Below the pieces are notes generated by a model, which worked only from the letters and a program-made list of their open reading frames with translations, ran no database searches and had not been told where the DNA came from. The translations under genes were made by a program, and so were the position numbers. Source: Vicinamibacterales bacterium (lineage in GTDB: Bacteria; Acidobacteriota; Vicinamibacteria; Vicinamibacterales; UBA8438). From it: 64,000 nucleotides of DNA. Numbering within the stretch: the stretch's first letter is position 1; each line of letters opens with the position of its first letter. Positions 16,702-64,000 of the stretch are shown here, piece after piece. Location: positions 415,077 to 479,076 of the forward strand of contig CBDAVM010000002.1 in NCBI GenBank assembly GCA_965200895.1, written 5' to 3'.

Positions 16702-17739
16702 ATGAGCAGGCGGCAGACGCGGCATCACATGTACGTCGCGCTCCAGGATGACAACAGGATCTCCATCTTCACGATGCATCCGTCCACCGGCGCCTTGAGC
16801 TGGCAGGAGGACGTGGAGATCGAGGGCGGGCCGGCGCCGCTGGCGCTGTCGCCGGACAAGCGCGTGCTCTACGTGGGCCGGCGCGGGAGCCAGGAGATCG
16901 CCAGCTACCGCGTCGATCAGCAGACCGGCAGTCTGTCGTTCCTCGGTGCGACGCCGCTGCAGGGCGAGCCGGTCTACGTGGCGACCGACCGGACGGGGCG
17001 GTTCGTGCTCTCCGCCTACTATTACCAGAGCACGGCCGCGGTGCATGCGGTGAACGACGACGGGGTGGCCGCGTTTCCGCCCGTCGAGTGGCGCTTCACG
17101 GCGCACGGGGCGCATGCGATCCTGACGGACCGCTCGAACCGCTTCGCCTACGTGCCGCACATCGCCAACCGGGGACCGAACCGGATCTACCAGTTTCACT
17201 TCGACGAGCAGACGGGCCGGCTGACGCCGAACGACCCGCCGTTCCACGGTCCGGAGGAGTACCTGGGGCCGCGGGCGCTGGCGTTCCACCCGTTCCTCGA
17301 CGTGGTCTACTTCTCGGACGAGCAGGGGAGCAGCGTGACGGCGTACGCCATCGACCCGGAGAAGGGGACGCTGTCGCCGCTGCAGACCATTCCGACGCTG
17401 CCGGCGGGCTACGAAGGGAACAACACCTGCTCGCAGATCCGGATCTCGTCCACCGGCGAGTTCCTGTTCGCGCCCAACCGGGGCCACAACAGCATCGCGA
17501 GCTTCCGCGTGGACGACACCACCGGCCGGCTGACGGCGGCCGGCCGGGTGGGGACCGAACCGGTGCCGCGTGCGTTCGGCCTGGATCCGGACGGGCGCTT
17601 CCTGTTCGCGGCCGGCCAGCAGTCGGGCCGGCTCGCGTCCTACCGCGTGGATCACGAGAGCGGCGATCTGACCCCTCTCGAAACCTACGAGGTGGGCAAC
17701 AACCCGATGTGGGTGCTGATGACCACGCTGGACGGCTAG
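16702..17739 (+). CDS. lactonase, 7-bladed beta-propeller (6-phosphogluconolactonase-like) family
   Basis: ORF 16702..17739. Repeated 'P..LA.SPD.R.LYV', PNRGHNSIASFRVD, TGRLT..G. Collinear with the Pgl/YbhE type. Confidence 0.85.
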   Translation: MSRRQTRHHMYVALQDDNRISIFTMHPSTGALSWQEDVEIEGGPAPLALSPDKRVLYVGRRGSQEIASYRVDQQTGSLSFLGATPLQGEPVYVATDRTGRFVLSAYYYQSTAAVHAVNDDGVAAFPPVEWRFTAHGAHAILTDRSNRFAYVPHIANRGPNRIYQFHFDEQTGRLTPNDPPFHGPEEYLGPRALAFHPFLDVVYFSDEQGSSVTAYAIDPEKGTLSPLQTIPTLPAGYEGNNTCSQIRISSTGEFLFAPNRGHNSIASFRVDDTTGRLTAAGRVGTEPVPRAFGLDPDGRFLFAAGQQSGRLASYRVDHESGDLTPLETYEVGNNPMWVLMTTLDG

Positions 17740-17997
17740 GAGTCTGCGCCACGGGAACGGTGCAGGCTCCTGGTCAGGCCCGGTTGGGCGGCAATCGGAG
17801 CCGCAGGCGACGATTGTCGGGCCAGGAGCTTGCGCCGCGGAACGCAGCGAAAGCGAAGTGCCGAGGCGCAAGGTCATGGAACGGGGGATGCGCCGGAATG
17901 CCGGGCCCGCGAGGGCGTTTCGGGGCGCTGGTCATTGCCAGTCCTGCCCGTCGTGCGGGGACGGGCGCAGAGTGCACGCAGGAAGGTGGAGAAGCAG

Positions 17998-33548: not shown

Positions 33549-34252
33549 TCAGTCGACGTATCGGCGGCTGAACGCCGGGGCGAGGCGTACGGCGAGGGCG
33601 TCGGCGCGTTCGGAGCGGGCGATGTCGTCCGGTTCGCGCAGCAGTTCCTCCAGATCGCGCGGACGCACGCCGGGCACCGCCGCGGACTCACCCGCTTCGC
33701 GCCAGCCGTCGGGTTCGGAGATGAGAACGACAGCGGTTCCTTCCGGCCGGGCATCGGTGCCGCCGGTGCGCGACCAGACCCGGACTTCGGGTACGTCGAG
33801 CCGTCGATATGCCGCGAGACGTTGCTCCGTCCGTGTCGGATTCAACGGCGTGGTGTCGATCTCGATGGCGAGGTCGGGGGGCGGGGCGGGGCGGCCGGCC
33901 CTCTGAGCGCCTCCAGCTTGGTCGGGCGCACGAAGAGCTGCACGTCCGGGTGACGCCGGTCCTCCTCATCCTCGATGGGCGCGGTGGTGCCGATGTGTCC
34001 GTGTGCGCCGGAGCGCCGCCGCAACGCTTCGAGCAATCTGAACAAATCGTCGGCCCGCGGGTCGTGATAGCGGCCGTTGGGCACCGCGTCGACCTCCAGG
34101 GCGCCCCGCGCGCCGTTGTAGCACGCGCTGCGCGGCAACTGCCTGCTGTCCATCAGTCGGTCGTAGCACTCGACCGGCATCGGGAAGATCAATGTGCCGT
34201 GCTCGAAGCGCAGATCGGAGTGCTCGTTGAAGACTGTGGTCTCGGCGGTCAT
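33549..34252 (-). pseudogene. Uma2-family (DUF820) endonuclease, frameshifted in a C/G-rich run near 33850-33900
   Basis: ORF 33842..34252(-) holds FEHGTLIFPMP...RHPDVQLFV. The next frame holds PPPDLAIEIDTTPLNPTRTEQRLAAYRRLDVPEVRVW (ORF 33549..33845 plus its upstream extension). Confidence 0.6.
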
Positions 34253-34353
34253 GCTGGACTGGTTCGATTCGTGCCGTCACCGTCCGCTATCGATCGTGTG
34301 ACGCCCGGTATTGTACTCGACGAGCGGGGCGGCGCAGCCCGCTTGCCCCGCTT

Positions 34354-34902
34354 GCTGCCGCAACCGTTCGGCGCGTAGTCTCCGGCGGCGTCGAGCGCGA
34401 AGAGAACAGGCTGAAATGTTGAGTATGGTAGTACCTTCCGCGCAACACGGCCCTTCCGAACGGCGAAGACCAGCGAGTCGGAACGCCCGAGCCCCCGACA
34501 GAGATCGAGAATCCAGAGCGCCTGCCTCGACAGCGGCACGCGATGCTCGCGGCCGTTCTTCATCCGCTCCTTCGGAACGGTCCACAACCCCGACTCGCAG
34601 TCGATCTCCGACCACGTCGCGCCGGCGGCCTCGTTGAAGCGACACGCCGTCAACACGATGAACACCAGCAGGAGCCGCACCGCCTCGTCGACGTCGTCCG
34701 CCGCCCGTACCGCCCGCACCGCGTCGGCGACCCGCTTATGCGGGAGACTCGGATGGTGATCCGGTTCCCGCTTCACCTTCGGCAGCAGCACCTTCAGCTC
34801 GGCCGCCGGGTTGTCCTGCCGGTACTTGTGGGCGACGGCGTGCTGCATCACGCTGTCGAGGCGCTGACGCAGCACGTACCCCTTCGAACCGCGGCCCTTC
34901 CA
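34354..34902 (-). pseudogene. P4-type tyrosine integrase, internal fragment (N-terminus and catalytic C-terminus missing or degenerate)
   Basis: Residues 80-262 of ORF 34249..35139(-): HAVAHKYRQDNPAAELKVLLPKVKREPDHHPSLP...LLLVFIVLTACRFNEAAGATWSEIDCESGLWTVPKERMKNGREHRVPLSRQAL. The expected HG.R box reads NGCG. Confidence 0.7.
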
Positions 34903-34911
34903 GCGCCGGGG

Positions 34912-34985
34912 GAGCTCCGCCCCCGTGCTACACCTTGTGATATCCAATCGCGCGCTTCCCGCGATCGGGACGCTCGAACGGCGTC
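34912..34985. repeat. dispersed repeat R1, copy A (74 bp; 73/74 identical to 41266..41339, same orientation)
   Basis: GAGCTCCGCCCCCGTGCTACACCTTGTGATATCCAATCGCGCGCTTCCCGCGATCGGGACGCTCGAACGGCGTC. Contains the palindrome GGGACGC-TCGAACG-GCGTC(C/T)C. Confidence 0.9.
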
Positions 34986-35020
34986 TCAGCCCCGACACCG
35001 CGAGCCTCCGGAGGCTCGCC

Positions 35021-35714
35021 TCACGCTTCTCGGCCAAGCTTCTCGGCGGCAATGCACGTCGTCGCGCAACCGCAGAACGGATCGAGAACGATGTTCCCCT
35101 CGTTGCTGGACGCTTTGACGATGCGCTCGAGGAGAGCAAGAGGCTTCTGCGTCGGGTAGCCGGTCAACTCTGGTGTCACCGGTGGTTGGACGTCCGTCCA
35201 GACACTGCCGAGTCGAGCCCCTTTCTCGAGGTCGCAGAATCGTCGGCGCTCCAGGCGACCGTCGTCATGGATGACGACCTTCCCGTCCTGGTATTCGGCC
35301 TCCAGCCGGTCCTTCGTGATACGCCAACCACTCGGGTGAGGATTCTCGTACCCACGCCACGAATAGCAAAGGTTCGGACGAGGTCCCATGTTGATCCCGC
35401 AGAAGTGGGCGATGCCGGTATATCAGCATGTAGGCCTTGCTGTGAGTCGATCCCGCGACCCGGACGACATCAGCGACGGCAGGATGCGGCGCCGACATCA
35501 AGTCGACCTCCTCAAGCTTCACGTCGTCGAGCGTCCACGTGTCCTTGAACGCGGCCCCGGCAGCCTTGCTGCCGATGGGCGCCGAGTACATCTTGTTGCT
35601 GTTGAACGGCGGGTCCAGGTAGATGAGGTCGACGCTCTCACTGTTCATCGAGTGCAGGACATCCAGGTTGTCCCCCGTGAACACCGTCCGGTTCGCCCAG
35701 TTCGGTACGCCCAC
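35021..35714 (-). pseudogene. N4/N6 DNA methyltransferase (PF01555-type, DPPF motif), with frameshift/internal deletion and truncated 3' end
   Basis: ORF 35265..35714(-): FTGDNLDVLHSM..SVDLIYLDPPFNSN. ORF 35021..35389(-): [35 protein letters not shown]. The central block and the end after KLGR are missing. Confidence 0.7.
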
Positions 35715-35904
35715 CTACAGCCAACATACCGATGCACATCCGGTTCCCTCGTCCGCCGCGGTCGCCAACCGCGGGTGCCCAAACACCACCCCTCAACCGC
35801 CGCCGCGACACCGACGCCATCCGCGCCGTGCGCGGCACCCACAGCAAGCCGTTCCCGACGCCGGGCAACCGCGAGATCGACGGTCGCATGATCATCGGGG
35901 CAGC

Positions 35905-36147
35905 GTCCTGCTCATCGTGCGCGGCGACAGCATGGCCGCAACCTGCATCCACGACGGCACCATCGTCGCCGTCAAGAAGACGCCCGACGCGCGGTCCGGA
36001 CAGATCGTCGTCGCCCGGTTCGGCGACGCACACGCAGGCACCGGCACGTCAACACAGGCCATCCGGTCCACGACACACCTCGACATGCCGCCGTTCCACG
36101 GGTGCGATCTTGTACAGTACGTCGTGATCAACCGTCGGTTGAAGTAG
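35905..36147 (+). pseudogene. LexA/S24-family peptidase, C-terminal fragment
   Basis: Tail of ORF 35623..36147: LLIVRGDSMAATCIHDGTIVAVKKTPDARSGQIVVARFGD. No intact wHTH domain; the Lys region is degenerate. Confidence 0.55.
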
Positions 36148-36151
36148 GATC
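36091..36151. repeat. dispersed repeat R2, copy A (61 bp; 59/61 identical to 42499..42559)
   Basis: CCGTTCCACGGGTGCGATCTTGTACAGTACGTCGTGATCAACCGTCGGTTGAAGTAGGATC. Covers the 3' end and stop of the S24 fragment. Confidence 0.9.
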
Positions 36152-36286
36152 ATTCGGCCGCATCTTCAGCGCCGGCCCCGCCCGCGAGATGCAGTTCGGC
36201 CTGCGCTACCGTTTCTGAACAGCCGGCCGGCGGCGACCGTGGCGACGGCTGCAGTCCGCGGCGCCGGATGGAGGGGACCAGAACCG

Positions 36287-37306
36287 ATGTCAGACCAGCT
36301 TCGCAAGCCCGCAGCGCCGCCCAGGCAGGGGCTCGCGCCGGTCGTGTCGCGATACAACAAGCTGCACGACGAGACCGCCGGCGGCACCGTGGATGCGCGC
36401 AACGCGCAGCGCATGGAGATGGTGAACGACTATTACGACCTGATCACCGACTTCTGCGAATATGGGTGGGGCGACTCCTTCCACTACGCCCCGCGCAAAC
36501 GGGGCGAATCGTACCGGGACTCGATCGTCCGCCACCAGGTGTTCCTGGCCAATGCTGTCGGGCTGCAGCCGGGCATGCGCGCGCTGGACGTGGGTTGCGG
36601 CGTGGGCGGTCCGTTGCGGACGATAGCCAGGGCCTCCGGCGCTTTCGTCGTCGGACTCAATAACCACGCGTATCAGCTCGAAAAGTGCAAGGCCTACAAC
36701 CTGGAGGCGGGCTTGCAGCATCAGACGGAGCTCCTCAAGGGCGACTTCATGAACATTCCGGCGGAGGCCGAATCGTTCGACGCCGCCTACGAGATCGAGG
36801 CCACCGCCCACACGGCCGACAAGGCGGGCGTTTTCTCCGAGATAGCACGGGTTCTGAAGCCTGGCGGCCTGTTCGGGGGCTACGAGTGGTGCATGACGTC
36901 GCGCTACGACCCGGACAATGCCGAGCACCGCGCCCTGAAGAAAGGCATCGAGCGGGGCAGTGCCGTCCCGGACGTGGCGGCCCCCGCAACGGTGCTCGCC
37001 GGCCTCGAGGCCGCTGGTTTCGAGGTTGTGGAAGCACGCGATCTGGCCCCGGAATCGGACCCGGAAACGCCCTGGCACAGCATCCTGGATCAGCGCGAAG
37101 TCAAACCCGTAAGTTCGCCGGAAACGACCGGCGGCCGGCGCGTCGCCGCCGTGCTGGCGCAAGTCCGGCAGGGCCTCGCCTTCGTGCCCAAGGGCACCTC
37201 CGAGGTGATGGCGGTGCTCGACTGTCTCGTGAACAGCACCAGGGACGCCGGCCGCCTCGGCATCTTCACACCGCTGTTCTATTTCAAGGCGCGCAAGCCC
37301 GCGTAG
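36287..37306 (+). CDS. sterol C-24 methyltransferase (ERG6/SMT1) homologue
   Basis: Met 17 of ORF 36239..37306, after GGAGGGG. Collinear over its full length with ERG6 as I recall it: YYDLITDFCEYGWGDSFHYAPR, LDVGCGVGGP, VVGLNNHAYQ, YEIEATAHT, VLKPGG, YEWCMT, and C-terminal IFTPLFYFKARKP. Confidence 0.85.
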   Translation: MSDQLRKPAAPPRQGLAPVVSRYNKLHDETAGGTVDARNAQRMEMVNDYYDLITDFCEYGWGDSFHYAPRKRGESYRDSIVRHQVFLANAVGLQPGMRALDVGCGVGGPLRTIARASGAFVVGLNNHAYQLEKCKAYNLEAGLQHQTELLKGDFMNIPAEAESFDAAYEIEATAHTADKAGVFSEIARVLKPGGLFGGYEWCMTSRYDPDNAEHRALKKGIERGSAVPDVAAPATVLAGLEAAGFEVVEARDLAPESDPETPWHSILDQREVKPVSSPETTGGRRVAAVLAQVRQGLAFVPKGTSEVMAVLDCLVNSTRDAGRLGIFTPLFYFKARKPA

Positions 37307-37354
37307 GCGCGCGCCAAGCTCACCCCTGACGTGCCCGGCTGCGAGGCAAGCCGC

Positions 37355-37406
37355 TCGAGTGATCTCGACGCGATGTCAAGAGAGCTCTGTGACGCACCGC
37401 ATCCTG
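37355..37406. repeat. dispersed repeat R5, copy A (52 bp; 44/52 identical to 39754..39805 inside the FN3 gene)
   Basis: TCGAGTGATCTCGACGCGATGTCAAGAGAGCTCTGTGACGCACCGCATCCTG. The minus-strand reading GCGASQSSLDIASRSLE matches GCGSSSSSLDVASRSLD in the FN3 gene. Confidence 0.7.
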
Positions 37407-37418
37407 CTAACTAACTAA
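37407..37418. other. CTAACTAACTAA: stop codons in all three frames on both strands
   Basis: TAA x3 on the plus strand and TAG x3 on the minus strand, each staggered by 4 nt. An isolated AT-rich 12-mer in GC-rich DNA, directly abutting the hairpin at 37420..37437. Confidence 0.9.
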
Positions 37419-37419
37419 A

Positions 37420-37437
37420 GCCGCTGCGCCCAGCGGC
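37420..37437 (-). terminator. intrinsic-terminator-like hairpin downstream of the NHLP precursor gene
   Basis: The minus strand reads GCCGCTG-GGCG-CAGCGGC followed by TTTAGTTAGTTAG, about 130 nt after the precursor stop codon. Confidence 0.45.
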
Positions 37438-37565
37438 GGCGGGCGGCCTGTACGATGTGCCGGGCGAGACGGGGGTCTCACCGCCTCGCTCGCGGAGGGG
37501 GGGAGCTCAACCCCCTGCCGGTCCTGATCTGAAGGACGCTCTCCGGATTGCCTTCAGCGATCAAC

Positions 37566-37841
37566 CTAGCAGCACAACTCACACCAGCCGCCGGCGACGT
37601 TCTCGAGCTGTTCCTCGTCGAGCTCGGGCGTTGGCGGCAGGGCGATGTGGGCGTTCTGCATGTCAATCTGATGCACGTGCACCCGCATGCTGTCCGGCAA
37701 CTCCACGCCGAATTCGCGGCTGATGACGGCCTTGGGGTCGGCCACGAACGCCGCCCGGAAGTCGGTATCCTCGCCCGCCCTGTCGACGATCTTCTTCCGG
37801 ATGTCCTCCGCCGTCACCATCATGCTCTCGAAATTCCCCAT
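37566..37841 (-). CDS. NHLP (nitrile-hydratase-like leader peptide) family RiPP precursor; core WCELCC
   Basis: Met 46 of ORF 37566..37976(-). GGAGG lies 6 nt upstream. Leader: MGNFESMMVTAEDIRKKIVDRAGEDTDFRAAFVADPKAVISREFGVELPDSMRVHVHQIDMQNAHIALPPTPELDEEQLENVAGG, followed by WCELCC and the stop. Confidence 0.85.
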   Translation of the reverse strand: MGNFESMMVTAEDIRKKIVDRAGEDTDFRAAFVADPKAVISREFGVELPDSMRVHVHQIDMQNAHIALPPTPELDEEQLENVAGGWCELCC

Positions 37842-37904
37842 CTTCATCCTCCTTGCATGCACGGATGCCAGCCTTGCTTGCACGGAAGGCCAGCTTCCAT
37901 ACCC

Positions 37905-37954
37905 AGTGGTCTCCGAGCGAGACAGATGCGGCGTTCTGCATGCCGACCCCGCAC
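37905..37954. repeat. dispersed repeat R3, copy A (50 bp; about 90% identical to 41681..41730, two compensating 1-nt indels)
   Basis: AGTGGTCTCCGAGCGAGACAGATGCGGCGTTCTGCATGCCGACCCCGCAC. Contains the palindrome GTCTC-CGAGC-GAGAC. Confidence 0.8.
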
Positions 37955-38027
37955 CGAAACCCGACCACCGTACCACGTCTTCCGAACGTCAGGTCGCCCG
38001 CTTCCACGGAAATCGTCCACCCACACC

Positions 38028-38640
38028 CTGCTCGTGACGGTCTGCAACGACTATCTCGACCGCCGCCACGACGACGTCAACCGGCGCCGCATCGCGTCCG
38101 GCGCGCCGTGGATGCTGCTGGCCCCGCGGGGTGAGCGGCCACTGGTCGGACCGGTCTTCCGGCCGGCGGAGCAGGGACCGTGCTGGGCCTGTCTCGTCCA
38201 TCGCCTGCGCGGTCACCGGGAGATCCACGAGTTCGTGCGCAGGCTCGCCGGCGACGACCGCGCGCCGGCGCCGCGGGTGTCCGAGCCGGTCGTCGTGGAC
38301 GCGGTGTACGACCTGGCCGCAGCCGAGATCGCCAAGTGGCTGGTCCTCGACGCGCTGGCGCCGCTGCACGAGAACGTCATCTCGCTGGACGTCCTCGGCC
38401 TGCAGAGCGGGCAGCACGTGACGGTCCGCCGCCCCGCAGTGCCGCGCCTGCGGCGACGAGGCGCTGTATCGCCCCGACCGCCCGCCGGCGCCGGTGCGGT
38501 TGCGGCCGAGTCCCAGGCACGCGCGCAGCAGCGGCGGGGTGCGCTCGGTGCCCCCCGAGGTGACCCTGGCCCGTTACCGGCACCTGATCAGTCCGGTCCC
38601 GCCGGTAACAACCGCTGCGCCACGCCACACCACACCCCGG
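38028..38640 (+). pseudogene. TOMM-type cyclodehydratase (E1-like docking domain fused to YcaO), truncated at 5' and 3' ends and frameshifted
   Basis: Frame of ORF 37548..38678: LLVTVCNDYLDRRHDDVNRRRIASGAPWMLLAPRGERPLVGPVFRPAEQGPCWACLVHRLRGHREI...HVTVRRP. After a 1-nt shift in a C-run (38431..38435) the sequence reads RRPQCRACGDE...GGVRSVPPEVTLARYRHLISPV (frame of ORF 38494..38736). Confidence 0.7.
38234..38368. repeat. dispersed repeat R4, copy A (135 bp inside the cyclodehydratase remnant; 133/135 identical to 63190..63324)
   Basis: CGTGCGCAGGCTCGCCGGCGACGACCGCGCGCCGGCGCCGCGGGTG...GCGCTGGCGCCGCTGCA. Encodes RRLAGDDRAPAPRV(S/A)EPVVVDAVYDLAAAEIAKWLVLDALAPL. Confidence 0.9.
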
Positions 38641-38674
38641 CCCTTCAGATCGGAACCTCCACCGGAAACCGACT

Positions 38675-38707
38675 GTGAACCGACTGTACAGTACAGTCAG
38701 GTTTCAC
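38675..38707 (-). terminator. imperfect 15-17 bp palindrome about 40 nt downstream of the FN3 gene stop
   Basis: GTGAACCGACTGTAC-A-GTACAGTCAGGTTTCAC. The minus strand is followed by AGTCGGTTTCC. Confidence 0.35.
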
Positions 38708-38747
38708 GAATCGATGGCGGTTGCGATCCGCTGTGAACGCGTGGGCC

Positions 38748-41243
38748 TCAGCGTCTTCTCTGTCTGAAACGGGTCCCGGCGATGATCATGAACGCGGCAA
38801 GCACCAACTGTGCGAAGACCGGGAGGGCCGGCACCGGGGCTGCATGCCGGAGAATCTCAGCGTCAGCGGCTCCCACTGTCAACTGAAAATCATCGCTGGC
38901 AGTGCCGCCAGCGGCGTCAGTTGCCGTGATCTCCAGCCCGAGCACGTGTTCGCCCTCCGGGCCCGTAGTCAGCGTCAAAACCTCTCCGGACCAGCCTCCG
39001 GTGACCTTGTTGCGCGCCACGGTGTTGATCGGGCCAGTTCGCACCTGACCGGTGCGGTTGTTCGTCGTGGTAACCATCACGCCGTACGTCACCCCGGAAC
39101 CCGTGAAGTGCTCGCCCATGTCGAGCTCATGCGTCACGCTGTTAGCCAACGACAAATCAGAGAACTCCTGGACCAACGTCGCAGGGTCGTCGCCGTCTCC
39201 CGGGTCGTCGTCGCCGGCGCCGACCGTGAGCTCGAAGCTGTCGCTGGCGGCTCCGACGTTGTTCGACGCTGTGATCTCGAGCGTCAACTCGTGGTCGCCG
39301 GTCGGGCCGGCCGTCAACGTAAGGACGTCCTCGTCCCAAGCGCCGCGCACCTTGTTGCGCGCCACCGTATTGATTGGCGCGGTTCGGACGACGCCCGTCT
39401 GGTTGTGCGTCGTCGTGACGAGGACCGAGTACTCGAGGTTGCTGCCCTTGAAGTACTCCGTCATGTCCAAGTCGTGCATCTGGTCGTGTGCCAGCATCAG
39501 ATCCGGGAACTCGGTCGACACCGTCGCCGGCCCAGGTGTAGCGTGCACTTCGTCCGACCAGCCGCTGTTCGCCTCACCGGTCGTTTCACGGACCCGGAAC
39601 TTGTACTCCTGACCGTCGGTCAGGCCATCTATCAGAGCGGTCGTTCCAGAGACCACCACGCTTTGACTGGTGCTCCAGTCGGCCTCTTCTTCGGCCCAAC
39701 TGACCTCATAGTTCGGATCCGTCGAATCGTCGTCATCTGCAGAAGCCGTCACATCGAGCGATCTCGAAGCGACGTCAAGAGAGCTCGAGGACGAGCCGCA
39801 TCCTGACGAAGCCGCGGCACCCCTCGCTGACGCTGCTTGGGCGCGGAACCCGCTCATCTGGTTTGCCTGCCCTGACACCCAGCAGAGACGCACCTCGTTT
39901 TCCCCCACCACAGGACGGTTTTGGACGGTCGGGATCACGAGTTCGGGCGGTGTCCTTCCCGTCACTTCAACCGGGTCGCTGCAGATGTTGTCCGGCCAGT
40001 AGAGACATGCTTTGACTTGCACGACGTACACGGTGTCTGCGGTCAGTTCGAACATGCGGTACCAGCCCGCGCGTATACTGCCCGACCACTCACTCCAGTC
40101 GGACGCTGTGCTTTCTTTGTATCGTACGTGCGACCAGTGTCCTTCTTCGGTCGTGTTCCAGTCGACCTGGAGCATCGTAGACGCCTGATCCAAATGGCTG
40201 ATTCGCACATTCGTTGGCGCTGGCGGAGGGTCCGGCGGCGGACCCGGTGGAGACCCCGTCGTCGACCCTGTGGCCTCTGACGGCAGGCTGCACGTGTCGT
40301 GTGCGGTGCTCGTGCACGCACCTACCTGGATGTCGTAGCTCGTGCCCGAGATGAGATCGTAGAGGTGGGCTGTCGCTACATTCGAGAAGACGTCGGTGTA
40401 TCCCATCGGCATGTTGTTCTGGTCTGCAGGCCAGCTGTCCGATGTCTCCTTGTATCGGTAGCGCCAGTAGTTGTTTCCGTCGATGTGCCACCAGAACGAC
40501 AGCGACGATGAGCTCGCTCGCGTGAGCTCGAGTCCGGGCGGTGGTGGCACTGTTGACGCTGCCGACCACTTCCAGACGCTGGTCGCGCTGTCGAGGATAG
40601 CGCTGTCGTCCGTTGATGAACGGACGACGGTTCTGACGAACATCCGGTACGCGGTGCGTCGCGACAGTCCCGTGAACTCGTACGGCGCCGCGGTTGTGAA
40701 TCCTTTGCTGTCATCGAGCGGTGCGGTTGCATTCGTGTCGGTGTTGTACCCCACTTGGTACGACACGCTGGATGGCGGTTCTCCTTCGTTCGACCAGCTG
40801 AACCTGATGGATGTATCGCCTCCTCCGACTGGTGATATGCTTTTTACTGGAATCGATGGGATCGCTCCTTCCACAGTGGCAGATACAGCTCCGCAAACGA
40901 TTGGATCGCTATTGTCGCAGTTCTCTGCATAGACCTTGTATCGATATCCTCGCCACGCATTGATCACGTAGACGTCGTCGCTCGTGCTGTCTCTGGTTTG
41001 GTTCTGCCAGTCATCGCTTCCTCGCTGGTACCAGATGCGCACCTTCGGTTGAGGTGCGTCGTCGATCTCAACGCGGAGATCGCCTCTGACGTTCGTGCTG
41101 CTCCCATCCCCGGGTCCGTAAACCCGGGTGATCGTCGGTGCCGGGTAACTCGGTGGTGGTTGTGGTGGTTGTGCCTCGCTGGTGCCCACTGCGGGGACGA
41201 CCAGGAGCAGCGCGCACAGCGTCGTCCGGCCAGTCTTCGACAT
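38748..41243 (-). CDS. large secreted surface protein: FN3-like repeats, two tandem cadherin/Ig-like domains, IPTL/PEP-CTERM-like C-terminal sorting tail
   Basis: Met 91 of ORF 38748..41513(-). GGAGG lies 5 nt upstream. Signal MSKTGRTTLCALLLVVPAVGTSEA. Repeated W..Y.YK/Y.V.V motifs. Two ~105-aa repeats (FPDLMLAHDQMHDLDMTEYF... and FSDLSLANSVTHELDMGEHF...). Tail VPALPVFAQLVLAAFMIIAGTRFRQRRR. Confidence 0.8.
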   Translation of the reverse strand: MSKTGRTTLCALLLVVPAVGTSEAQPPQPPPSYPAPTITRVYGPGDGSSTNVRGDLRVEIDDAPQPKVRIWYQRGSDDWQNQTRDSTSDDVYVINAWRGYRYKVYAENCDNSDPIVCGAVSATVEGAIPSIPVKSISPVGGGDTSIRFSWSNEGEPPSSVSYQVGYNTDTNATAPLDDSKGFTTAAPYEFTGLSRRTAYRMFVRTVVRSSTDDSAILDSATSVWKWSAASTVPPPPGLELTRASSSSLSFWWHIDGNNYWRYRYKETSDSWPADQNNMPMGYTDVFSNVATAHLYDLISGTSYDIQVGACTSTAHDTCSLPSEATGSTTGSPPGPPPDPPPAPTNVRISHLDQASTMLQVDWNTTEEGHWSHVRYKESTASDWSEWSGSIRAGWYRMFELTADTVYVVQVKACLYWPDNICSDPVEVTGRTPPELVIPTVQNRPVVGENEVRLCWVSGQANQMSGFRAQAASARGAAASSGCGSSSSSLDVASRSLDVTASADDDDSTDPNYEVSWAEEEADWSTSQSVVVSGTTALIDGLTDGQEYKFRVRETTGEANSGWSDEVHATPGPATVSTEFPDLMLAHDQMHDLDMTEYFKGSNLEYSVLVTTTHNQTGVVRTAPINTVARNKVRGAWDEDVLTLTAGPTGDHELTLEITASNNVGAASDSFELTVGAGDDDPGDGDDPATLVQEFSDLSLANSVTHELDMGEHFTGSGVTYGVMVTTTNNRTGQVRTGPINTVARNKVTGGWSGEVLTLTTGPEGEHVLGLEITATDAAGGTASDDFQLTVGAADAEILRHAAPVPALPVFAQLVLAAFMIIAGTRFRQRRR
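39754..39805. repeat. dispersed repeat R5, copy B (inside the FN3 gene linker)
   Basis: TCGAGCGATCTCGAAGCGACGTCAAGAGAGCTCGAGGACGAGCCGCATCCTG. Confidence 0.7.
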
Positions 41244-41265
41244 CTTGACCTCCCCAGACCTCATC

Positions 41266-41339
41266 GAGCTCCGCCCCCGTGCTACACCTTGTGAGATCCA
41301 ATCGCGCGCTTCCCGCGATCGGGACGCTCGAACGGCGTC
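41266..41339. repeat. dispersed repeat R1, copy B (starts 22 nt upstream of the FN3 gene start codon)
   Basis: Identical to 34912..34985 except one T/G difference. Confidence 0.9.
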
Positions 41340-41419
41340 CCACCCAAACCCCAACACCATGTGCGCCACACTTGACCAGGGGGCTCGGCGTCCGACCCCT
41401 TCTCGACGCCCTCCAGACC

Positions 41420-41590
41420 AGCAGATCCCGCTCATCGGACCGCTGGCCGAAGTCGCCGCCGGCACGCCGATCGTCTGCGACGCCAACACCGTCGAGCGCA
41501 TGCCGGCGGCCATCGCCGACCGGTTCCGGCCCCGGCCGGACTACCTGCTCACCGTGCGCGGCAACAGCATGAACCGCACCCGCATCGTCG
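41420..41590 (+). pseudogene. LexA/S24-family peptidase, central fragment (second, independent remnant)
   Basis: Within ORF 41182..41685: QIPLIGPLAEVAAGTPIVCDANTVERMPAAIADRFRPRPDYLLTVRGNSMNRTRIV. The homology breaks off right after the GNSM serine motif. Confidence 0.5.
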
Positions 41591-41680
41591 CCGCTGAAGT
41601 GATCGAACATGTCGAGGATTCGCTCGAGCTTTCCGCGCCGAGCTCGGGGAGAGCGGCGGCAACGCGCCCCCTATATACCG

Positions 41681-41730
41681 AGTAGTCTCCGAGCGAGACA
41701 GATGCGGGCGTTCTGCAGGCGACCCCGCAC
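41681..41730. repeat. dispersed repeat R3, copy B
   Basis: AGTAGTCTCCGAGCGAGACAGATGCGGGCGTTCTGCAGGCGACCCCGCAC. Confidence 0.8.
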
Positions 41731-42055
41731 TTTCTGGACGTTCGACCGCGAGGCCAGCGCCATCACGCCGCGCGCATTCAGTGGCGGCGGGGACGGGGCC
41801 TCCATCGATCAGCTCTTCATCACCCACGCCGCGAACGACACGCTGATCGACCGCGCCGCCGAGCCCGGCCGCCTATAGCACCAGGCAGGAGTTCAGCGGC
41901 ATGATCATCGACAACAGCAGCGCCTGAGCGGCGCCACGGCCGCGTCTGAATCCACGGCCTCTGCCCAGTCGCGCTGGCCCGAGCGATACGGTCGCCGCCG
42001 TACCCGCCGTCCCGCATCACCGGTGTAGAATCACCTCAAGGGAGACACGCACGAC

Positions 42056-42421
42056 ATGGCCGACCACACTGCGCCCGCCGCCGAGCACGCAGCCAGCCCC
42101 GCAAAACCGAGACTCTCGGCCGACACCAGGTGGATCGTCACCACCGGCATCGCCCTCGGAGTCCTGCTGGTAGCTCTCACCAGCAGCGCGCTCCTGCTCA
42201 TCAACGCCCGGATCGACGACACCAACAACAACGTGCGCGAGCTCCGCACCGAGATGCACGCGATGCGTGCAGACTTGCAGACCGAGATCCGCGAACGCCA
42301 CGCAGACTTGCAGACCGAGATCCGCGAACGCCACGCAGACATGCAGACCGACATCCGCGAACTCCGCGGCATGTTGCTCCAGCTCCTCGAACGGACTGAA
42401 CCAGCCAGCCCGGTCGACTGA
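42056..42421 (+). CDS. small membrane-anchored coiled-coil protein with 11-residue tandem repeats
   Basis: ORF 42056..42421. TM segment WIVTTGIALGVLLVALTSSALLLI, then ELRTEMHAMR-ADLQTEIRERH-ADLQTEIRERH-ADMQTDIRELR. Weak SD (AAGGGAGA). Confidence 0.55.
   Translation: MADHTAPAAEHAASPAKPRLSADTRWIVTTGIALGVLLVALTSSALLLINARIDDTNNNVRELRTEMHAMRADLQTEIRERHADLQTEIRERHADMQTDIRELRGMLLQLLERTEPASPVD
42269..42367 (+). repeat. 3 x 33-bp tandem repeat (in frame, coding)
   Basis: GCAGACTTGCAGACCGAGATCCGCGAACGCCAC occurs twice perfectly, then GCAGACATGCAGACCGACATCCGCGAACTCCGC. Confidence 0.9.
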
Positions 42422-42427
42422 ACACCC

Positions 42428-42440
42428 GGGGGGGGGGGGG
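42428..42440. repeat. G13 homopolymer
   Basis: ACACCC-GGGGGGGGGGGGG-CCGGGC, 7 nt after the coiled-coil ORF stop. Confidence 0.95.
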
Positions 42441-42498
42441 CCGGGCGCAGCCCGCCACCCGCCTCGCAAATCACGCCCCGTCAGCCGCCCGCACCCGC

Positions 42499-42559
42499 CC
42501 GTTCCACGGGTGCAATCTTGTACAGTGCGTCGTGATCAACCGTCGGTTGAAGTAGGATC
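42499..42559. repeat. dispersed repeat R2, copy B
   Basis: CCGTTCCACGGGTGCAATCTTGTACAGTGCGTCGTGATCAACCGTCGGTTGAAGTAGGATC. Confidence 0.9.
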
Positions 42560-42633
42560 CGTGGGAACGAAACAGGCCAGACGCCGTAAGCCATTGTGTT
42601 TACAGGACTTACGTCAGGGTCAGACGCACCACA

Positions 42634-42804
42634 GAGCGGACGCTCGCCGAATTCGGCGAGCGTCAGGCCACGAAACAGCGTACCCGGCCGACGGGCGAAC
42701 CACTTGTGCACGGCGATGATCGGGCGGTAGTTCTGCTGGATCTGTTTCTCTCGGCGGGCCATCGCCGCAACAAACGCGATGTCGAAGTGGGCCTCGATGG
42801 ACAT
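42634..42804 (-). pseudogene. DUF1156-like putative DNA methylase, N-terminal ~57-residue fragment
   Basis: Start of ORF 42481..42804(-): MSIEAHFDIAFVAAMARREKQIQQNYRPIIAVHKWFARRPGTLFRGL (pattern REK.I....vHkWfARRP). It then runs into repeat R2. Confidence 0.45.
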
Positions 42805-42855
42805 GGCCGTCAGGCTCCTGCCGGCGGCGGAGCGGCGTCCGTGGTCGCCATCGGC

Positions 42856-63146: not shown

Positions 63147-63189
63147 GGGAGTTCGAGGGCCGCGCGGTGACCCTGTAGATCTGTAGGTA

Positions 63190-63324
63190 CGTGCGCAGGC
63201 TCGCCGGCGACGACCGCGCGCCGGCGCCGCGGGTGGCCGAGCCGGTCGTCGTGGACGCCGTGTACGACCTGGCCGCAGCCGAGATCGCCAAGTGGCTGGT
63301 CCTCGACGCGCTGGCGCCGCTGCA
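63190..63324. repeat. dispersed repeat R4, copy B: isolated 135-bp piece of the cyclodehydratase gene
   Basis: 133/135 identical to 38234..38368. Flanks are unrelated on both sides. Confidence 0.9.
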
Positions 63325-63546
63325 GGCAGTGAGCGCCTCCGGCTGTACGAAACCTTCATCCAACCGGCCGCCGCGCGACTCCATGCGCACCTCCACATTC
63401 AACCCGGCGTACCATAGCTTGCGGTCGAAGCACGAACCGTCCCGGAGAACGACGGCGGGAAACATCAGCTCACGGCCGCAGCACGACCCAACCTGAATCC
63501 GAGACCCAAGCCATCCGCAACGCGAAGATGGTCAACTGACGGTCCC

Positions 63547-64000
63547 ATGCACGACGAGACGTACAAGAAGCTCTTCGCCTCCCCCCACATGGTCGAGGAC
63601 CTGGTGCGGGCCTTCGGCCCGGCCCCGATCGCCGACCAGATTGACTACACGTCGCTCCGACGACTGTCCTCCGAGCTGATCAGCCACGACCTGCAGAAGC
63701 GCTCCGGCGACACCATCTGGTCAGCCACGCTCCGCGCGGACGCCCACGCCAAACGAGCACAGAAGCTCTACCTGCTGATCCTGCTCGAGTTCCAGTCCAC
63801 CCACGACCACTGGATGGCGCTCCGCATGGCGGTCTACACCGCGCTGCTGTACCAGAACGGCATACGCGATGGAACGATCACGCCAGCAACCGGCCTCCCG
63901 CCCGCACTCCCGATCGTCGTGCACAACGGTGACCGCCCGTGGCGCGCGCCCCGCTTGATGCGCGAGCTAAGCGCACTCAGCGACGAGAGTCTGCGCGAAC
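63547..64000 (+). CDS. Rpn-family recombination-promoting nuclease / putative transposase (PD-(D/E)XK, YhgA-like), 3'-partial at the window edge
   Basis: Not in the ORF track because there is no stop before the window end. ATG at 63547. MHDETYKKLFASPHMVEDLVRAF...SGDTIWSA...LYLLILLEFQSTHDHWMALRMAVYTALLYQ...LPPALPIVVHNGDRPW. Confidence 0.75.
   Translation, partial: MHDETYKKLFASPHMVEDLVRAFGPAPIADQIDYTSLRRLSSELISHDLQKRSGDTIWSATLRADAHAKRAQKLYLLILLEFQSTHDHWMALRMAVYTALLYQNGIRDGTITPATGLPPALPIVVHNGDRPWRAPRLMRELSALSDESLRE

What the first reader, a model, noticed from the sequence alone, without database searches (positions are those of the whole stretch)
37566..37841. Intact NHLP-type RiPP precursor with a six-residue, three-cysteine core (WCELCC)
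A 91-codon minus-strand ORF has a GGAGG Shine-Dalgarno 6 nt before its ATG and a hairpin plus U-run about 130 nt downstream. Residues 1-85 have the architecture of nitrile-hydratase-like leader peptides: a helical N-terminal part, the block FVADPKAVISREFGVELPDSMRVHV, an acidic PELDEEQLE stretch and a terminal double-glycine motif (VAGG). Only WCELCC remains after GG. That is much shorter than the NHLP cores I know, and half of it is cysteine. A mature product would be a tiny azoline-, thioamide- or thioether-capable hexapeptide, possibly metal-binding. No C39-peptidase ABC exporter and no intact modifying enzyme is present in the window. This is either an orphan or decaying precursor, or it is served in trans.
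Basis: partly seen in the sequence, partly recalled or inferred. Interest (0 to 1): 0.72.

Follow-up and report, generated by a model that had tools for sequence, protein, structure and literature searches.

The report
Orphaned short-core thiazole-peptide precursor gene
This is a real, intact gene for the precursor of a tiny cysteine-rich modified peptide, of a kind already known from marine-sponge bacteria (the "srp" proteusins), but here it sits in the wreckage of its own biosynthetic gene cluster, so it is an ordinary new member of a known family, not a new kind of peptide.

Summary
Window 37566-37841(-) is a 91-codon ORF with GGAGG 6 nt before the ATG. It has an NHLP leader (TIGR03793, 73.2 bits against a cutoff of 50.9), a VAGG cleavage motif and the core WCELCC.

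The short three-cysteine core is not unusual. The ORF is 45% identical to SrpE, the sponge-microbiome proteusin with core LCCCW, whose Cys residues a YcaO enzyme converts to thiazolines. An exhaustive profile search returns srp-type peptides with 4-8-residue cores (LCCCW, LCCCL, RCCC, LSCCL and others) as its nearest relatives.

In a related gammaproteobacterial MAG, homologous precursors (cores YIHCGSC and YFSGCS) lie in an intact cluster. That cluster has a fused YcaO cyclodehydratase, a SagB-type dehydrogenase and NHLP-type C39/ABC/HlyD exporters.

In the window the divergent YcaO gene is reduced to residues 157-358 with a frameshift. A scrap of a second YcaO tail lies downstream. No dehydrogenase or exporter is present, and the locus sits in a low-GC mosaic of broken mobile-element genes.

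The gene is one of at least four dispersed paralogues per genome. Their leaders are about 95% identical and their cores are hypervariable. Any maturation must happen in trans. The only YcaO detectable in this genome lacks its N-terminal leader-binding wHTH.

Verdict: new member of a known kind, modest interest.

The parts
37566..37841 (-). NHLP/proteusin precursor gene. It has 91 codons plus a stop. The leader is 37587-37841 (aa 1-85, ending VAGG), the core WCELCC is 37569-37586, and the stop is 37566-37568.
   Evidence: Translation. TIGR03793 at 73.2 bits. 45% identity to SrpE. Identical protein P0001 in the public database.
37848..37852 (-). Shine-Dalgarno GGAGG, 6 nt before the ATG.
   Evidence: Read from the sequence. 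Conserved in all paralogue loci (alignment A2).
37899..37954 (-). Conserved upstream element of the NHLP genes, a possible promoter or 5' region. A second copy lies at 41675-41730.
   Evidence: blastn finds it in the window and in L001, L002, L016 and L017. No sigma-70 consensus was found.
37420..37437 (-). Terminator-like hairpin with a weak U-run, 129 nt after the stop.
   Evidence: The fold is no more stable than shuffles.
37436..37560 (+). Scar made of the last ~32 codons of a YcaO gene (…GELNPLPVLI*, 37500-37532) plus the first codons of the dehydrogenase gene. It is a remnant of a neighbouring tandem unit.
   Evidence: 79% identical to the YcaO/dehydrogenase junctions L007 2696-2819 and 7364-7487, and to the scar downstream of NHLP1 in L007. 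tblastn tail match.
38004..38631 (+). Gutted YcaO cyclodehydratase pseudogene, divergent from the precursor gene. Residues 157-300 are in one frame (38004-38435). After a frameshift, residues 300 to about 358-365 follow (38434-38631). The N-terminal wHTH/RRE part and the whole YcaO catalytic domain are missing.
   Evidence: tblastn with the L007 YcaO gives 74-79% identity. Domain map of the intact enzyme: TIGR03882 at aa 191-358 and SagD/YcaO at aa 402-770.
36287..37306 (+). 339-aa class I SAM methyltransferase with a Sterol_MT_C-like C-terminus, convergent with the precursor gene. It travels with the precursor as a 2.2-kb module. Any role in the pathway is unproven.
   Evidence: Pfam and NCBIfam. 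Window 35890-38129 matches L015 11947-9725 at 97.9%, with unrelated flanks.
33800..42850 (.). Low-GC (63-66% against ~70%) mosaic island holding the locus. It contains an integrase fragment (34252-35139), a split DNA methylase (35024-35714), an S24-like gene (35623-36144), a 921-aa fn3 protein (38748-41513) and short dispersed repeats.
   Evidence: Composition, Pfam, repeats. The flanking housekeeping genes are a PQQ dehydrogenase and an aldose epimerase.
63162..64000 (+). Second copy of a 160-nt YcaO piece (aa ~230-278) fused to the 5' end of a frameshifted Transposase_31/Rpn-like gene.
   Evidence: Window 38207-38368 matches 63162-63324 at 92.6%. tblastn with the L001 Transposase_31 protein and with YcaO.

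Best explanation
**Identity.** The ORF is a genuine precursor peptide of the srp/mpr type. It has a nitrile-hydratase-like (proteusin) leader followed by a very short Cys-rich core.

**Pathway in complete clusters of relatives (inferred from homology and published work on SrpC and MprC/MprD).**
- A fused wHTH(RRE)-E1-like-YcaO cyclodehydratase binds the leader through helix alpha1 and the L(X)4L motif.
- It converts the core cysteines to thiazolines.
- A SagB-type flavoprotein oxidises them to thiazoles.
- An NHLP-type C39-peptidase ABC exporter cuts after the double glycine and exports the product.
- For WCELCC this predicts a hexapeptide, Trp-Thz-Glu-Leu-Thz-Thz. This product is inferred, not shown.

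**State of the local machinery (shown).**
- The divergent cyclodehydratase gene survives only as residues 157-358.
- Only a scrap remains of a neighbouring YcaO/dehydrogenase unit.
- No dehydrogenase or exporter is present.
- The gene lies in a rearranged low-GC island.

**Paralogues.** The gene is one of at least four dispersed paralogues in this genome. Their leaders and flanks are about 95% identical and their cores are hypervariable.

**Functional state.** Any maturation must be in trans, by enzymes encoded elsewhere. My estimates:
- about 45% that the peptide is still matured;
- about 45% that it is a recently stranded relic;
- about 10% other.

The confidence value refers to the identity and the cluster-wreck reading.
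For: **Identity**
- TIGR03793 scores 73.2 bits against a cutoff of 50.9.
- BLASTP to SrpE gives 45% identity, E 1e-28, aligned up to the cleavage site (SrpE sequence from the supplement of PMC10858898).
- The best PDB sequence hit and the best fold hits are the proteusin precursors 8TB1 and 9CJX.
- An exhaustive profile search ranks srp-type peptides first, with cores LCCCW, LCCCL, RCCC, LSCCL and others.

**Pathway**
- In L007 (a gammaproteobacterial MAG; name), homologous precursors sit in two tandem units of precursor, YcaO and dehydrogenase.
- Exporter genes with best matches to TIGR03797, TIGR03796 and TIGR03794 (all below their curated cutoffs) follow in the same cluster.
- L012 carries a precursor with core LSCCL plus YcaO and the same exporters.
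- Published biochemistry: SrpC converts the three Cys of LCCCW to thiazolines (PMC10858898, PMC10286304). MprC/MprD process ten MprE precursors and need the RRE (PMC12455567).

**Wreck**
- tblastn and blastn map the YcaO fragments in the window.
- No match to the dehydrogenase, exporters or other cluster proteins of L007 at E 1e-3.
- GC dips across the island, and it contains broken integrase and methylase genes.

**Real cores rather than read-through**
- 20 of 80 core residues are Cys, against 2.6% expected from trinucleotide content (P 1.6e-14).
- 20 of 80 are aromatic, and the leader has no Cys.

**Hypervariable core between conserved flanks**
- Between paralogues the core differs at 7-9 of 18 nt, while the leader differs at 13-17 of 255 nt (P 1e-5 to 1e-7).

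**Trans service is plausible**
- The intact-cluster MAG also has an orphan precursor (P0005) about 400 kb from its cluster.
- P0046, a 583-aa YcaO with complete E1-like and YcaO domains, is on a contig of the same length (2,086,339 bp) as P0001.
- An intact dehydrogenase lies next to paralogue P0131.
- All seven NHLP genes seen in six loci of this lineage are intact, while every adjacent YcaO is fragmentary.
- Leader dN/dS is 0.24-0.5 against distant copies.
Against: **Against current function**
- No full-length YcaO from this genome or its sister genome appears among the 120 best hits of the 5.8-billion-protein search.
- The only one, P0046, starts at residue 193 and so lacks the wHTH/RRE region. 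That region maps to aa 84-154 of homologue P0014. MprC needs it for NHLP substrates (PMC12455567).
- dN/dS among close paralogues is 0.4-1.25 on few substitutions, so recent purifying selection is not demonstrated.
- The absence of indels in the gene against L015 is only weakly informative (P 0.13).
- Exporters and the context of P0046 in this genome could not be examined.
- No expression data are available.

**Against the exact product**
- Heterocyclisation of a C-terminal Cys and of Cys2 next to Trp is assumed, not shown.

**Caveats**
- The comparison loci L001, L002 and L015-L017 carry 2x-4x tags in their contig names. I read these as low coverage, so some single-base differences may be errors.
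- Attribution of paralogues to one genome rests on the identical longest-contig length.
Confidence: 0.8

Rival explanations
1. Dead relic. The whole pathway is decaying in this lineage. The precursor ORFs are intact only because they are short and were stranded recently, and no mature peptide is made.
For: - Every YcaO copy next to a precursor in this lineage is a fragment (window, L001, L015, L016, L017).
- The best YcaO of the genome (P0046) lacks the N-terminal 192 residues, including the wHTH/RRE region.
- Close-paralogue dN/dS is 0.4-1.25.
- The locus is embedded in broken mobile-element genes and differs structurally between genomes.
Against: - Cores diverged 7-10 times faster than the leaders and flanks after the modules were copied. 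That pattern is expected from selection on a product.
- Seven of seven precursor genes are intact with only in-frame length changes, while flanks show 4 indel events in 547 nt.
- P0046 keeps a 583-codon open frame, and an intact dehydrogenase exists.
Confidence: 0.45
2. The precursor is matured by different chemistry from azoline formation. One option is methylation by the co-travelling SAM methyltransferase. Others are thioamide or thioether formation by enzymes elsewhere.
For: - The 339-aa methyltransferase is the only intact enzyme that stays linked to the WCELCC gene in two genomes with unrelated flanks.
- It shows no indels and 98.9% identity between the two genomes.
Against: - The methyltransferase is absent from all other precursor loci (L001, L002, L003, L007, L009, L012, L016, L017).
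- It matches no RiPP-tailoring family. Its best hits are MitM and generic class I methyltransferases.
- The only enzymes repeatedly linked to this leader family are YcaO, the SagB-type dehydrogenase and NHLP exporters.
- No TfuA, radical SAM or LanM gene lies next to any member. The radical SAM gene in L002 belongs to a QHNDH operon, and the nearby flavoprotein is QhpG-like.
Confidence: 0.05
3. The unmodified Cys-rich tail is a metal-binding motif. It would echo the C-x-L-C-S-C claw of nitrile hydratase alpha subunits, and the protein would act as a small metallo-protein or chaperone, not as a RiPP precursor.
For: - C-E-L-C-C resembles C-(S/T)-L-C-S-C (own knowledge).
- The leader is homologous to NHase alpha.
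- Some family loci lie near iron-uptake genes: feoB in L003 and L015, and a TonB-dependent receptor gene in L007.
Against: - The motif is not conserved in any paralogue (IGYICC, AWWMNCCC, AAWYCYSC, WYSFSS and others).
- In NHase the claw lies on the N-terminal side of the segment homologous to NHLPs (profile 114-171 of 189), so the position does not correspond.
- The tail follows a canonical double-glycine cleavage site.
- The feoB genes are not orthologous (30-42% identity, no shared flanks).
Confidence: 0.03
4. The ORF is a chance ORF or an annotation artefact on the strand opposite a longer ORF (37548-38678 +, 376 aa).
For: A longer ORF overlaps it on the other strand, as is common in 70% GC DNA.
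Against: - The plus-strand ORF is only read-through into the YcaO fragment and continues out of frame after the frameshift.
- The minus-strand ORF has a strong family hit, an SD and a coding GC3 pattern.
- Intact homologues exist in at least three genomes.
Confidence: 0.01

Closest known systems
SrpE / srp clusters (sponge-derived RiPP proteusins; Nguyen et al. JACS 2021, as described in PMC10858898, PMC10286304 and bioRxiv 10.1101/2023.06.09.544420)
   Same: - NHLP leader of about 80 aa, 45% identical, with the same L(X)4L motif (NLTEEQL against ELDEEQL).
- A very short core with three Cys (LCCCW against WCELCC).
- Association with a YcaO cyclodehydratase that makes thiazolines.
- Many srp precursor genes are likewise not co-located with a YcaO gene (116 of the precursor genes in that study were).
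- srp-type peptides are the top hits of the exhaustive search.
   Different: - The cleavage motif is GG, not AG.
- The Cys residues are not contiguous (C-x-x-C-C).
- Trp is at the N-terminal end of the core, not the C-terminal end, so it does not fit the reported SrpI requirement for a C-terminal Trp.
- No halogenase was seen in any locus of this sub-family.
- Cores are hypervariable between paralogues, whereas LCCCW is highly conserved.
- A sponge origin for this window is unknown.
MprE1-10 / MprC / MprD of Methylovulum psychrotolerans (proteusin linear azol(in)e peptides; PMC12455567, PMC10286304)
   Same: - Several precursors per genome share one conserved NHLP leader and carry different cores.
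- A fused RRE-YcaO cyclodehydratase works with a flavin dehydrogenase to give thiazoles.
- The host is a gammaproteobacterium.
- The structural fold of the leader matches (8TB1 is the top hit).
   Different: - Leader similarity is lower (32 bits).
- Two to six azolines per Mpr peptide are reported; Mpr core lengths were not compared here.
- Here the precursors are dispersed around the chromosome with dead enzyme stubs, not gathered in one cluster.
NHLP/TOMM systems of Haft, Basu and Mitchell 2010 (TIGR03793 precursors with TIGR03796/03797/03794 exporters)
   Same: - The leader family is met above the cutoff.
- The related intact cluster L007 has exporter genes whose best NCBIfam matches are these three exporter families.
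   Different: - None of these partner genes is in the window.
- The exporter scores in L007 are just under the equivalog cutoffs for TIGR03796/03797 (846.6 against 853.3; 658 against 709) and well under for TIGR03794 (81 against 156).

Membership tests
NHLP leader peptide family (TIGR03793) | Profile score above the curated cutoff, with the match ending at the leader/core boundary. | tested here: met
   73.2 bits against 50.9, residues 11-85 on profile 2-77/77.
NHLP leader peptide family (TIGR03793) | Homology to the C-terminal part of nitrile hydratase alpha. | tested here: met
   PF02979 at 29.2 against 27.2. TIGR01323 E 1.1e-6. NHase alpha chains appear among the PDB hits.
NHLP leader peptide family (TIGR03793) | Double-glycine cleavage motif with hydrophobic residues at -4, -7 and -12, for a C39 peptidase. 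| tested here: met
   VAGG, with V82 at -4, L79 at -7 and L74 at -12. The criterion is described in PMC12537861.
NHLP leader peptide family (TIGR03793) | Structured leader: a three-helix bundle plus two strands and a flexible tail. | tested here: inconclusive
   The AF2 model has mean pLDDT 63.6, with helices at 11-24, 26-34, 36-44 and 76-86. The top Foldseek hits are 8TB1 and 9CJX, but with TM ~0.5 and E 0.15-0.3.
NHLP leader peptide family (TIGR03793) | Neighbouring NHLP-type C39/ABC/HlyD exporter genes. | tested here: not met
   No tblastn match in the window. They are present in relatives L007, L012 and L013/L014.
srp-type proteusins (SrpE) | Leader homologous to SrpE. | tested here: met
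   45% identity, E 1e-28. srp-type peptides are the best hits in 1.84 billion representatives.
srp-type proteusins (SrpE) | Very short Cys-rich core. | tested here: met
   WCELCC has 6 residues and 3 Cys. Relatives have cores of 4-8 residues.
srp-type proteusins (SrpE) | LCCCW-type core: a contiguous Cys triplet and a C-terminal Trp as brominase substrate. | tested here: not met
   The core is W-C-E-L-C-C, with Trp at position 1. SrpI did not brominate substrates in which Trp was moved away from the C-terminus (PMC10286304).
srp-type proteusins (SrpE) | Co-located YcaO (SrpC) and flavin-dependent brominase (SrpI). | tested here: not met
   Only a YcaO pseudogene fragment is present. No halogenase family appears among the ORFs scanned in the island. 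The flavoprotein in L002 is QhpG-like.
srp-type proteusins (SrpE) | Origin in a marine sponge microbiome. | not testable with these tools
   Only sample accessions are known (ERZ25068762, ERZ25068043, SRR3396055x). The environment was not retrievable.
Linear azol(in)e peptides / TOMM | Functional E1-like/YcaO cyclodehydratase acting on the precursor. | tested here: not met
   In the window only residues 157-358 remain, with a frameshift. The YcaO domain (aa 402-770 of the intact enzyme) is absent. P0046, elsewhere in the genome, lacks residues 1-192.
Linear azol(in)e peptides / TOMM | Cys/Ser/Thr in the core available for heterocyclisation. | tested here: met
   The core has three Cys. The family cores are 25% Cys and 16% Ser/Thr.
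Linear azol(in)e peptides / TOMM | Azol(in)e rings actually installed. | not testable with these tools
   This needs mass spectrometry of the expressed peptide.

The most novel reading that the evidence does not exclude
The repeated unit [quoted passage not shown] may be part of a recombination-driven system that copies precursor cassettes around the chromosome and diversifies their cores. In two places the unit is fused to a Transposase_31/Rpn-like nuclease gene. Under this reading, a single RRE-less YcaO (P0046) plus a stand-alone dehydrogenase would mature all of the precursors in trans. That would mean NHLP recognition without the wHTH domain that MprC needs.
Probability: 0.08. Interest if true: 0.55.

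Novelty: new member of a known kind. Interest (0 to 1): 0.28.

Why it matters
It adds a small, lineage-restricted branch to the srp/mpr-type proteusin precursors. This branch uses GG instead of AG cleavage sites and has hypervariable aromatic/Cys cores.

It also gives a clear snapshot of how such a cluster falls apart while its precursor genes persist and multiply. That is useful for genome miners. Orphan NHLP genes with 4-8-residue cores should be read as srp-like azoline precursors, and their enzymes should be sought elsewhere in the genome.

It does not open a new class of chemistry. If the RRE-less YcaO proved active, that would bear on how NHLP leaders are recognised.

Tried and rejected
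1. **Halogenase link.** The FAD enzyme upstream of the two precursors in L002 looked like a CmlS-type halogenase in the PDB search. NCBIfam shows it is QhpG-like (202.7 bits), belonging to the adjacent quinohemoprotein amine dehydrogenase operon. Idea dropped.
2. **NHase claw mimic (C-x-L-C-S-C).** Rejected. No paralogue keeps the motif, and the claw lies on the other side of the homologous segment.
3. **Metallophore hint from feoB or TonB neighbours.** The feoB genes of L003 and L015 are only 30-42% identical with no shared flanks, and none is in the window. This is coincidence or unresolved.
4. **Genome context of the window's own genome.** P0001 and P0046 are not in the contig index. The position of P0046, its 5' end and any exporters could not be seen.
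5. **Search with the N-terminal 192 residues of the intact YcaO.** It found no fragment from this genome. It also failed to return the query's own protein, so the negative result is weak.
6. **Scans of GTDB genomes and JGI metagenomes with leader patterns.** They gave only 2 and 3 loci. The patterns were narrow, so this says little about distribution. The exhaustive profile search is the better measure.
7. **Rfam and RNA folding of the island and the 3' region.** Nothing was found.
8. **Literature.** The primary srp paper (PMC8780398) and the mpr paper (PMC9746716) are not held. Their content is cited only through later open papers.
9. **Positional orthology of the window locus and L015.** Rejected. 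Only the 2.2-kb module is shared.
Full report
**1. The observation**

The minus-strand ORF 37566-37841 translates to MGNFESMMVTAEDIRKKIVDRAGEDTDFRAAFVADPKAVISREFGVELPDSMRVHVHQIDMQNAHIALPPTPELDEEQLENVAGGWCELCC. GGAGG lies at 37852-37848, six bases before the ATG. GC by codon position is 0.60/0.48/0.81, the coding pattern of this ~70% GC genome.

NCBIfam TIGR03793 (NHLP leader) scores 73.2 bits against a cutoff of 50.9, E 1.2e-20. The match runs to the last profile position at GG. Pfam NHase_alpha passes its threshold. Leu74 and Leu79 form the L(X)4L motif. Positions -4, -7 and -12 from the cut site are V, L and L.

A hairpin with a poor U-run lies 129 nt downstream. It is not more stable than shuffled sequence. 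A profile scan of all six frames finds no second NHLP gene in the window.

The longer plus-strand ORF 37548-38678 that overlaps the gene is read-through into a pseudogene.

**2. The neighbourhood is a cluster wreck**

A related MAG is labelled Gammaproteobacteria (contig CBDATM010000001.1, locus L007). It carries two tandem units of [NHLP precursor | fused E1-like/YcaO cyclodehydratase, 773 aa | SagB-type dehydrogenase, 460 aa]. These are followed by a conserved 381-aa protein and three exporter genes. Their best NCBIfam matches are TIGR03797, TIGR03796 (with a C39 peptidase domain) and TIGR03794, all below the curated cutoffs. The cores there are YIHCGSC and YFSGCS.

Searching the window with those proteins gave the following:
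- YcaO residues 157-300 at 38004-38435 (74% identity).
- After a frameshift, residues 300 to ~358 at 38434-38631. These fragments are divergent from the precursor gene, exactly as in L007.
- No dehydrogenase, exporter or 381-aa protein.

The intact enzyme has its leader-binding E1-like domain at 191-358 and its YcaO domain at 402-770. A homologue shows a winged-helix (RRE-type) domain further N-terminal. The window copy has therefore lost both the RRE region and the whole catalytic domain.

Downstream of the precursor, 37436-37560 is 79% identical to the junction between the YcaO 3' end and the dehydrogenase 5' end. This includes the last ten YcaO codons. The same scar follows NHLP1 in L007, so the locus descends from a tandem array of that type.

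The locus sits in a 9-kb stretch of lower GC (63-66%). That stretch holds an integrase fragment, a split DNA methylase, an S24-like gene, a 921-aa fn3 protein and several short dispersed repeats. It lies between ordinary chromosomal genes.

**3. A small multi-copy family with hypervariable cores**

The word-indexed search of 5.8 billion proteins found the identical protein (P0001) and a handful of relatives. Cluster look-up added more.

I infer which genome each protein belongs to from the longest-contig length:
- The window's genome (2,086,339-bp contig) carries at least P0001 (WCELCC), P0004 (AAWYCYSC), P0130 (WYSFSS) and P0131 (GVFASGCC).
- A sister genome (2,799,742 bp) carries P0128 (WCELCC again), P0002 (IGYICC), P0003 (AWWMNCCC) and P0129 (GWFSQCC).

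Divergence between paralogues is very uneven:
- Leaders and flanks are ~93-98% identical at the DNA level.
- Core codons differ at 7-9 of 18 positions and in length.
- The excess in the core has binomial P between 1e-5 and 1e-7.
- For one paralogue (L002b) conserved sequence resumes right after the stop. The core is therefore a hot spot between conserved flanks, not a rearrangement breakpoint.

Across 12 distinct cores, 25% of residues are Cys and 25% are aromatic. The leader has no Cys. Random read-through cannot explain this (P 1.6e-14).

The copy with the same core in the sister genome (L015) is intact. It has four leader substitutions and one synonymous change in the core.

**4. The modules move, and the adjacent enzymes are dead everywhere in this lineage**

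Window 35890-38129 (methyltransferase, precursor, start of the YcaO stub) is 97.9% identical to L015. The genes on either side are unrelated in the two genomes.

The YcaO stubs at the other loci are as follows:
- L001 (P0004), L015 and L017 (P0130) share the same 5' boundary at residue ~157.
- In L001, and again at window 63162-64000, a 160-nt piece of that stub is fused to a Transposase_31/Rpn-like gene.
- L016 (P0131) has a different YcaO fragment (residues 382-474) and an inverted duplication of the YcaO tail. It also has an intact SagB-type dehydrogenase, 75.7% identical to L007.

The YcaO search returned one protein attributable to the window's genome, P0046. It is 583 aa and 78% identical to the L007 enzyme over residues 193-772. 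Its E1-like and YcaO domains are complete, but the first 192 residues are missing.

P0046 starts at the first Met after the shared residue-157 boundary. I therefore suspect the same deletion, but I could not see its DNA.

**5. The short three-Cys core is already known**

SrpE, the precursor of the sponge-derived RiPP proteusins, has the core LCCCW. The YcaO enzyme SrpC converts its three Cys to thiazolines, and SrpI brominates the terminal Trp (PMC10858898; PMC10286304). The window protein is 45% identical to the SrpE leader, aligned up to the cut site.

A profile of the family was searched against 1.84 billion representatives:
- 3,656 hits at E <= 1e-3 and 441 at E <= 1e-10.
- The best-ranked hits are srp-type peptides. 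Their cores include RCCC, LCCCL, LCCCT, LCCCW (five representatives), LCCCFFW, MCTCI, LCCRW, RYCACL, LSCCC, LSCCL, TFCCLCL, LCCCS and LCCCI.
- 25 of the 138 best hits with a scorable leader end have cores of 8 residues or fewer.

Multi-precursor NHLP systems with one conserved leader and varied cores are also established, for example MprE1-10 and DprE1-7 (PMC12455567, PMC12537861). The best PDB sequence and fold matches of the window protein are the proteusin precursors 8TB1 and 9CJX, although the model is only of moderate confidence.

**6. How it most likely works**

*Shown.* The gene encodes an NHLP leader with a C39-type cut site and a Cys-rich core. Relatives are linked to YcaO, a SagB-type dehydrogenase and NHLP exporters. 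The local enzymes are destroyed.

*Inferred from homology and published enzymology.* The cyclodehydratase binds helix alpha1 and the L(X)4L motif through its RRE. It converts Cys to thiazoline, and the dehydrogenase gives thiazoles. The C39-ABC exporter then releases a hexapeptide, predicted to be Trp-Thz-Glu-Leu-Thz-Thz.

*Unresolved.* It is not known whether this still happens in this organism.

For in-trans maturation:
- Cores diversified after the modules with dead YcaO stubs were copied.
- All seven precursor genes seen in this lineage are intact, while all adjacent YcaO genes are fragments.
- An orphan precursor also exists about 400 kb from the intact cluster in the related MAG.
- P0046 and a dehydrogenase have long open frames.
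- Leader dN/dS is 0.24-0.5 against distant copies.

For a relic:
- No full-length YcaO is on record for either genome.
- P0046 lacks the RRE region that MprC needs (PMC12455567).
- dN/dS among close copies is 0.4-1.25 on very few changes.
- The absence of indels in the gene is only weakly significant (P 0.13).

I put the two states at about equal odds.

**7. Rivals considered**
- Tailoring by the linked methyltransferase. It is found only with the WCELCC copy and matches generic methyltransferases such as MitM.
- A nitrile-hydratase-claw-like metal site. The motif is not conserved in paralogues and is in the wrong position.
- A halogenase link through L002. That flavoprotein is QhpG-like.
- A chance ORF. 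This is refuted.

**8. Caveats**
- The comparison loci L001, L002 and L015-L017 carry 2x-4x tags in their contig names. I read these as low coverage, so some single-base differences, and the apparent high dN/dS between close copies, may be errors.
- Attribution of proteins to one genome rests on identical longest-contig lengths.
- The environment of the samples is unknown.

**9. Verdict**

This is a correct and careful observation of a real gene. The feature that made it look special is the hallmark of an already described family. It is a new, somewhat divergent member (GG cut site, non-contiguous Cys, hypervariable cores) caught in a decaying, rearranging cluster. Interest is modest.

Noticed in passing
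window 36287-37306 (+): A 339-aa class I SAM methyltransferase with a Sterol_MT_C-like C-terminal domain (Pfam E 2e-9). Its best solved relative is MitM. It stays linked to the WCELCC precursor as a 2.2-kb module (97.9% identical in L015) although the surrounding genes differ between the two genomes. Its substrate is unknown.
   Followed up: partly
window 63162-64000 (+); also L001 8269-9631: A Transposase_31/Rpn-like gene, frameshifted near 63487. Its first ~45 codons derive from YcaO residues ~230-278. The same 160-nt piece occurs at window 38207-38368 (92.6% identical). This suggests recombination between cluster remnants and this nuclease gene.
   Followed up: partly
window 38748-41513 (-), within 38130-41833: A 921-aa protein with three fibronectin type III domains, no NCBIfam match and lower GC. 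It occupies the place where the YcaO catalytic domain should be. The whole 3.7-kb segment is absent from the otherwise near-identical loci L015 and L017.
   Followed up: partly
window 34912-34991 ~ 41266-41345; 36091-36151 ~ 42499-42559; 37899-37954 ~ 41675-41730; 37355-37406 ~ 39754-39805: Four pairs of short direct repeats (85-97% identical) are scattered through the low-GC island. One of them is the conserved upstream element of the NHLP genes, and it recurs upstream of the fn3 gene.
   Followed up: no
window 17733-17842; L001 10289-10412; L002 7856-7940: A ~110-nt palindromic REP/MITE-like element that starts right after a stop codon. In other genomes it recurs immediately downstream of NHLP precursor genes, but not at the window's NHLP locus.
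   Followed up: no
window 34252-35714 (-) and 35623-36144 (+): A phage-integrase fragment, a DNA N6/N4 methylase split into two frames, and an S24 peptidase-like (repressor-type) gene. These are remnants of an integrated element beside the RiPP module.
   Followed up: partly
L002 5416-17244: In the sister lineage, two tandem NHLP precursor genes are inserted between a QhpG-like flavoprotein gene and the rest of a quinohemoprotein amine dehydrogenase operon. That operon contains the heme subunit, a radical SAM gene, the gamma subunit, an ABC exporter and an S8 protease.
   Followed up: partly
L012 14190-16658 (-): In an srp-like cluster with core LSCCL, the gene between the YcaO and the exporters encodes an 823-aa fusion of a fatty-acid-desaturase domain with a GlnE/GlnD-type nucleotidyltransferase domain. 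This is an unusual candidate tailoring enzyme.
   Followed up: no
window 32238-32332 (+): ARAGORN calls a 95-nt tRNA-Gly(ACC) inside the PQQ-dehydrogenase ORF. It is probably a false positive.
   Followed up: no
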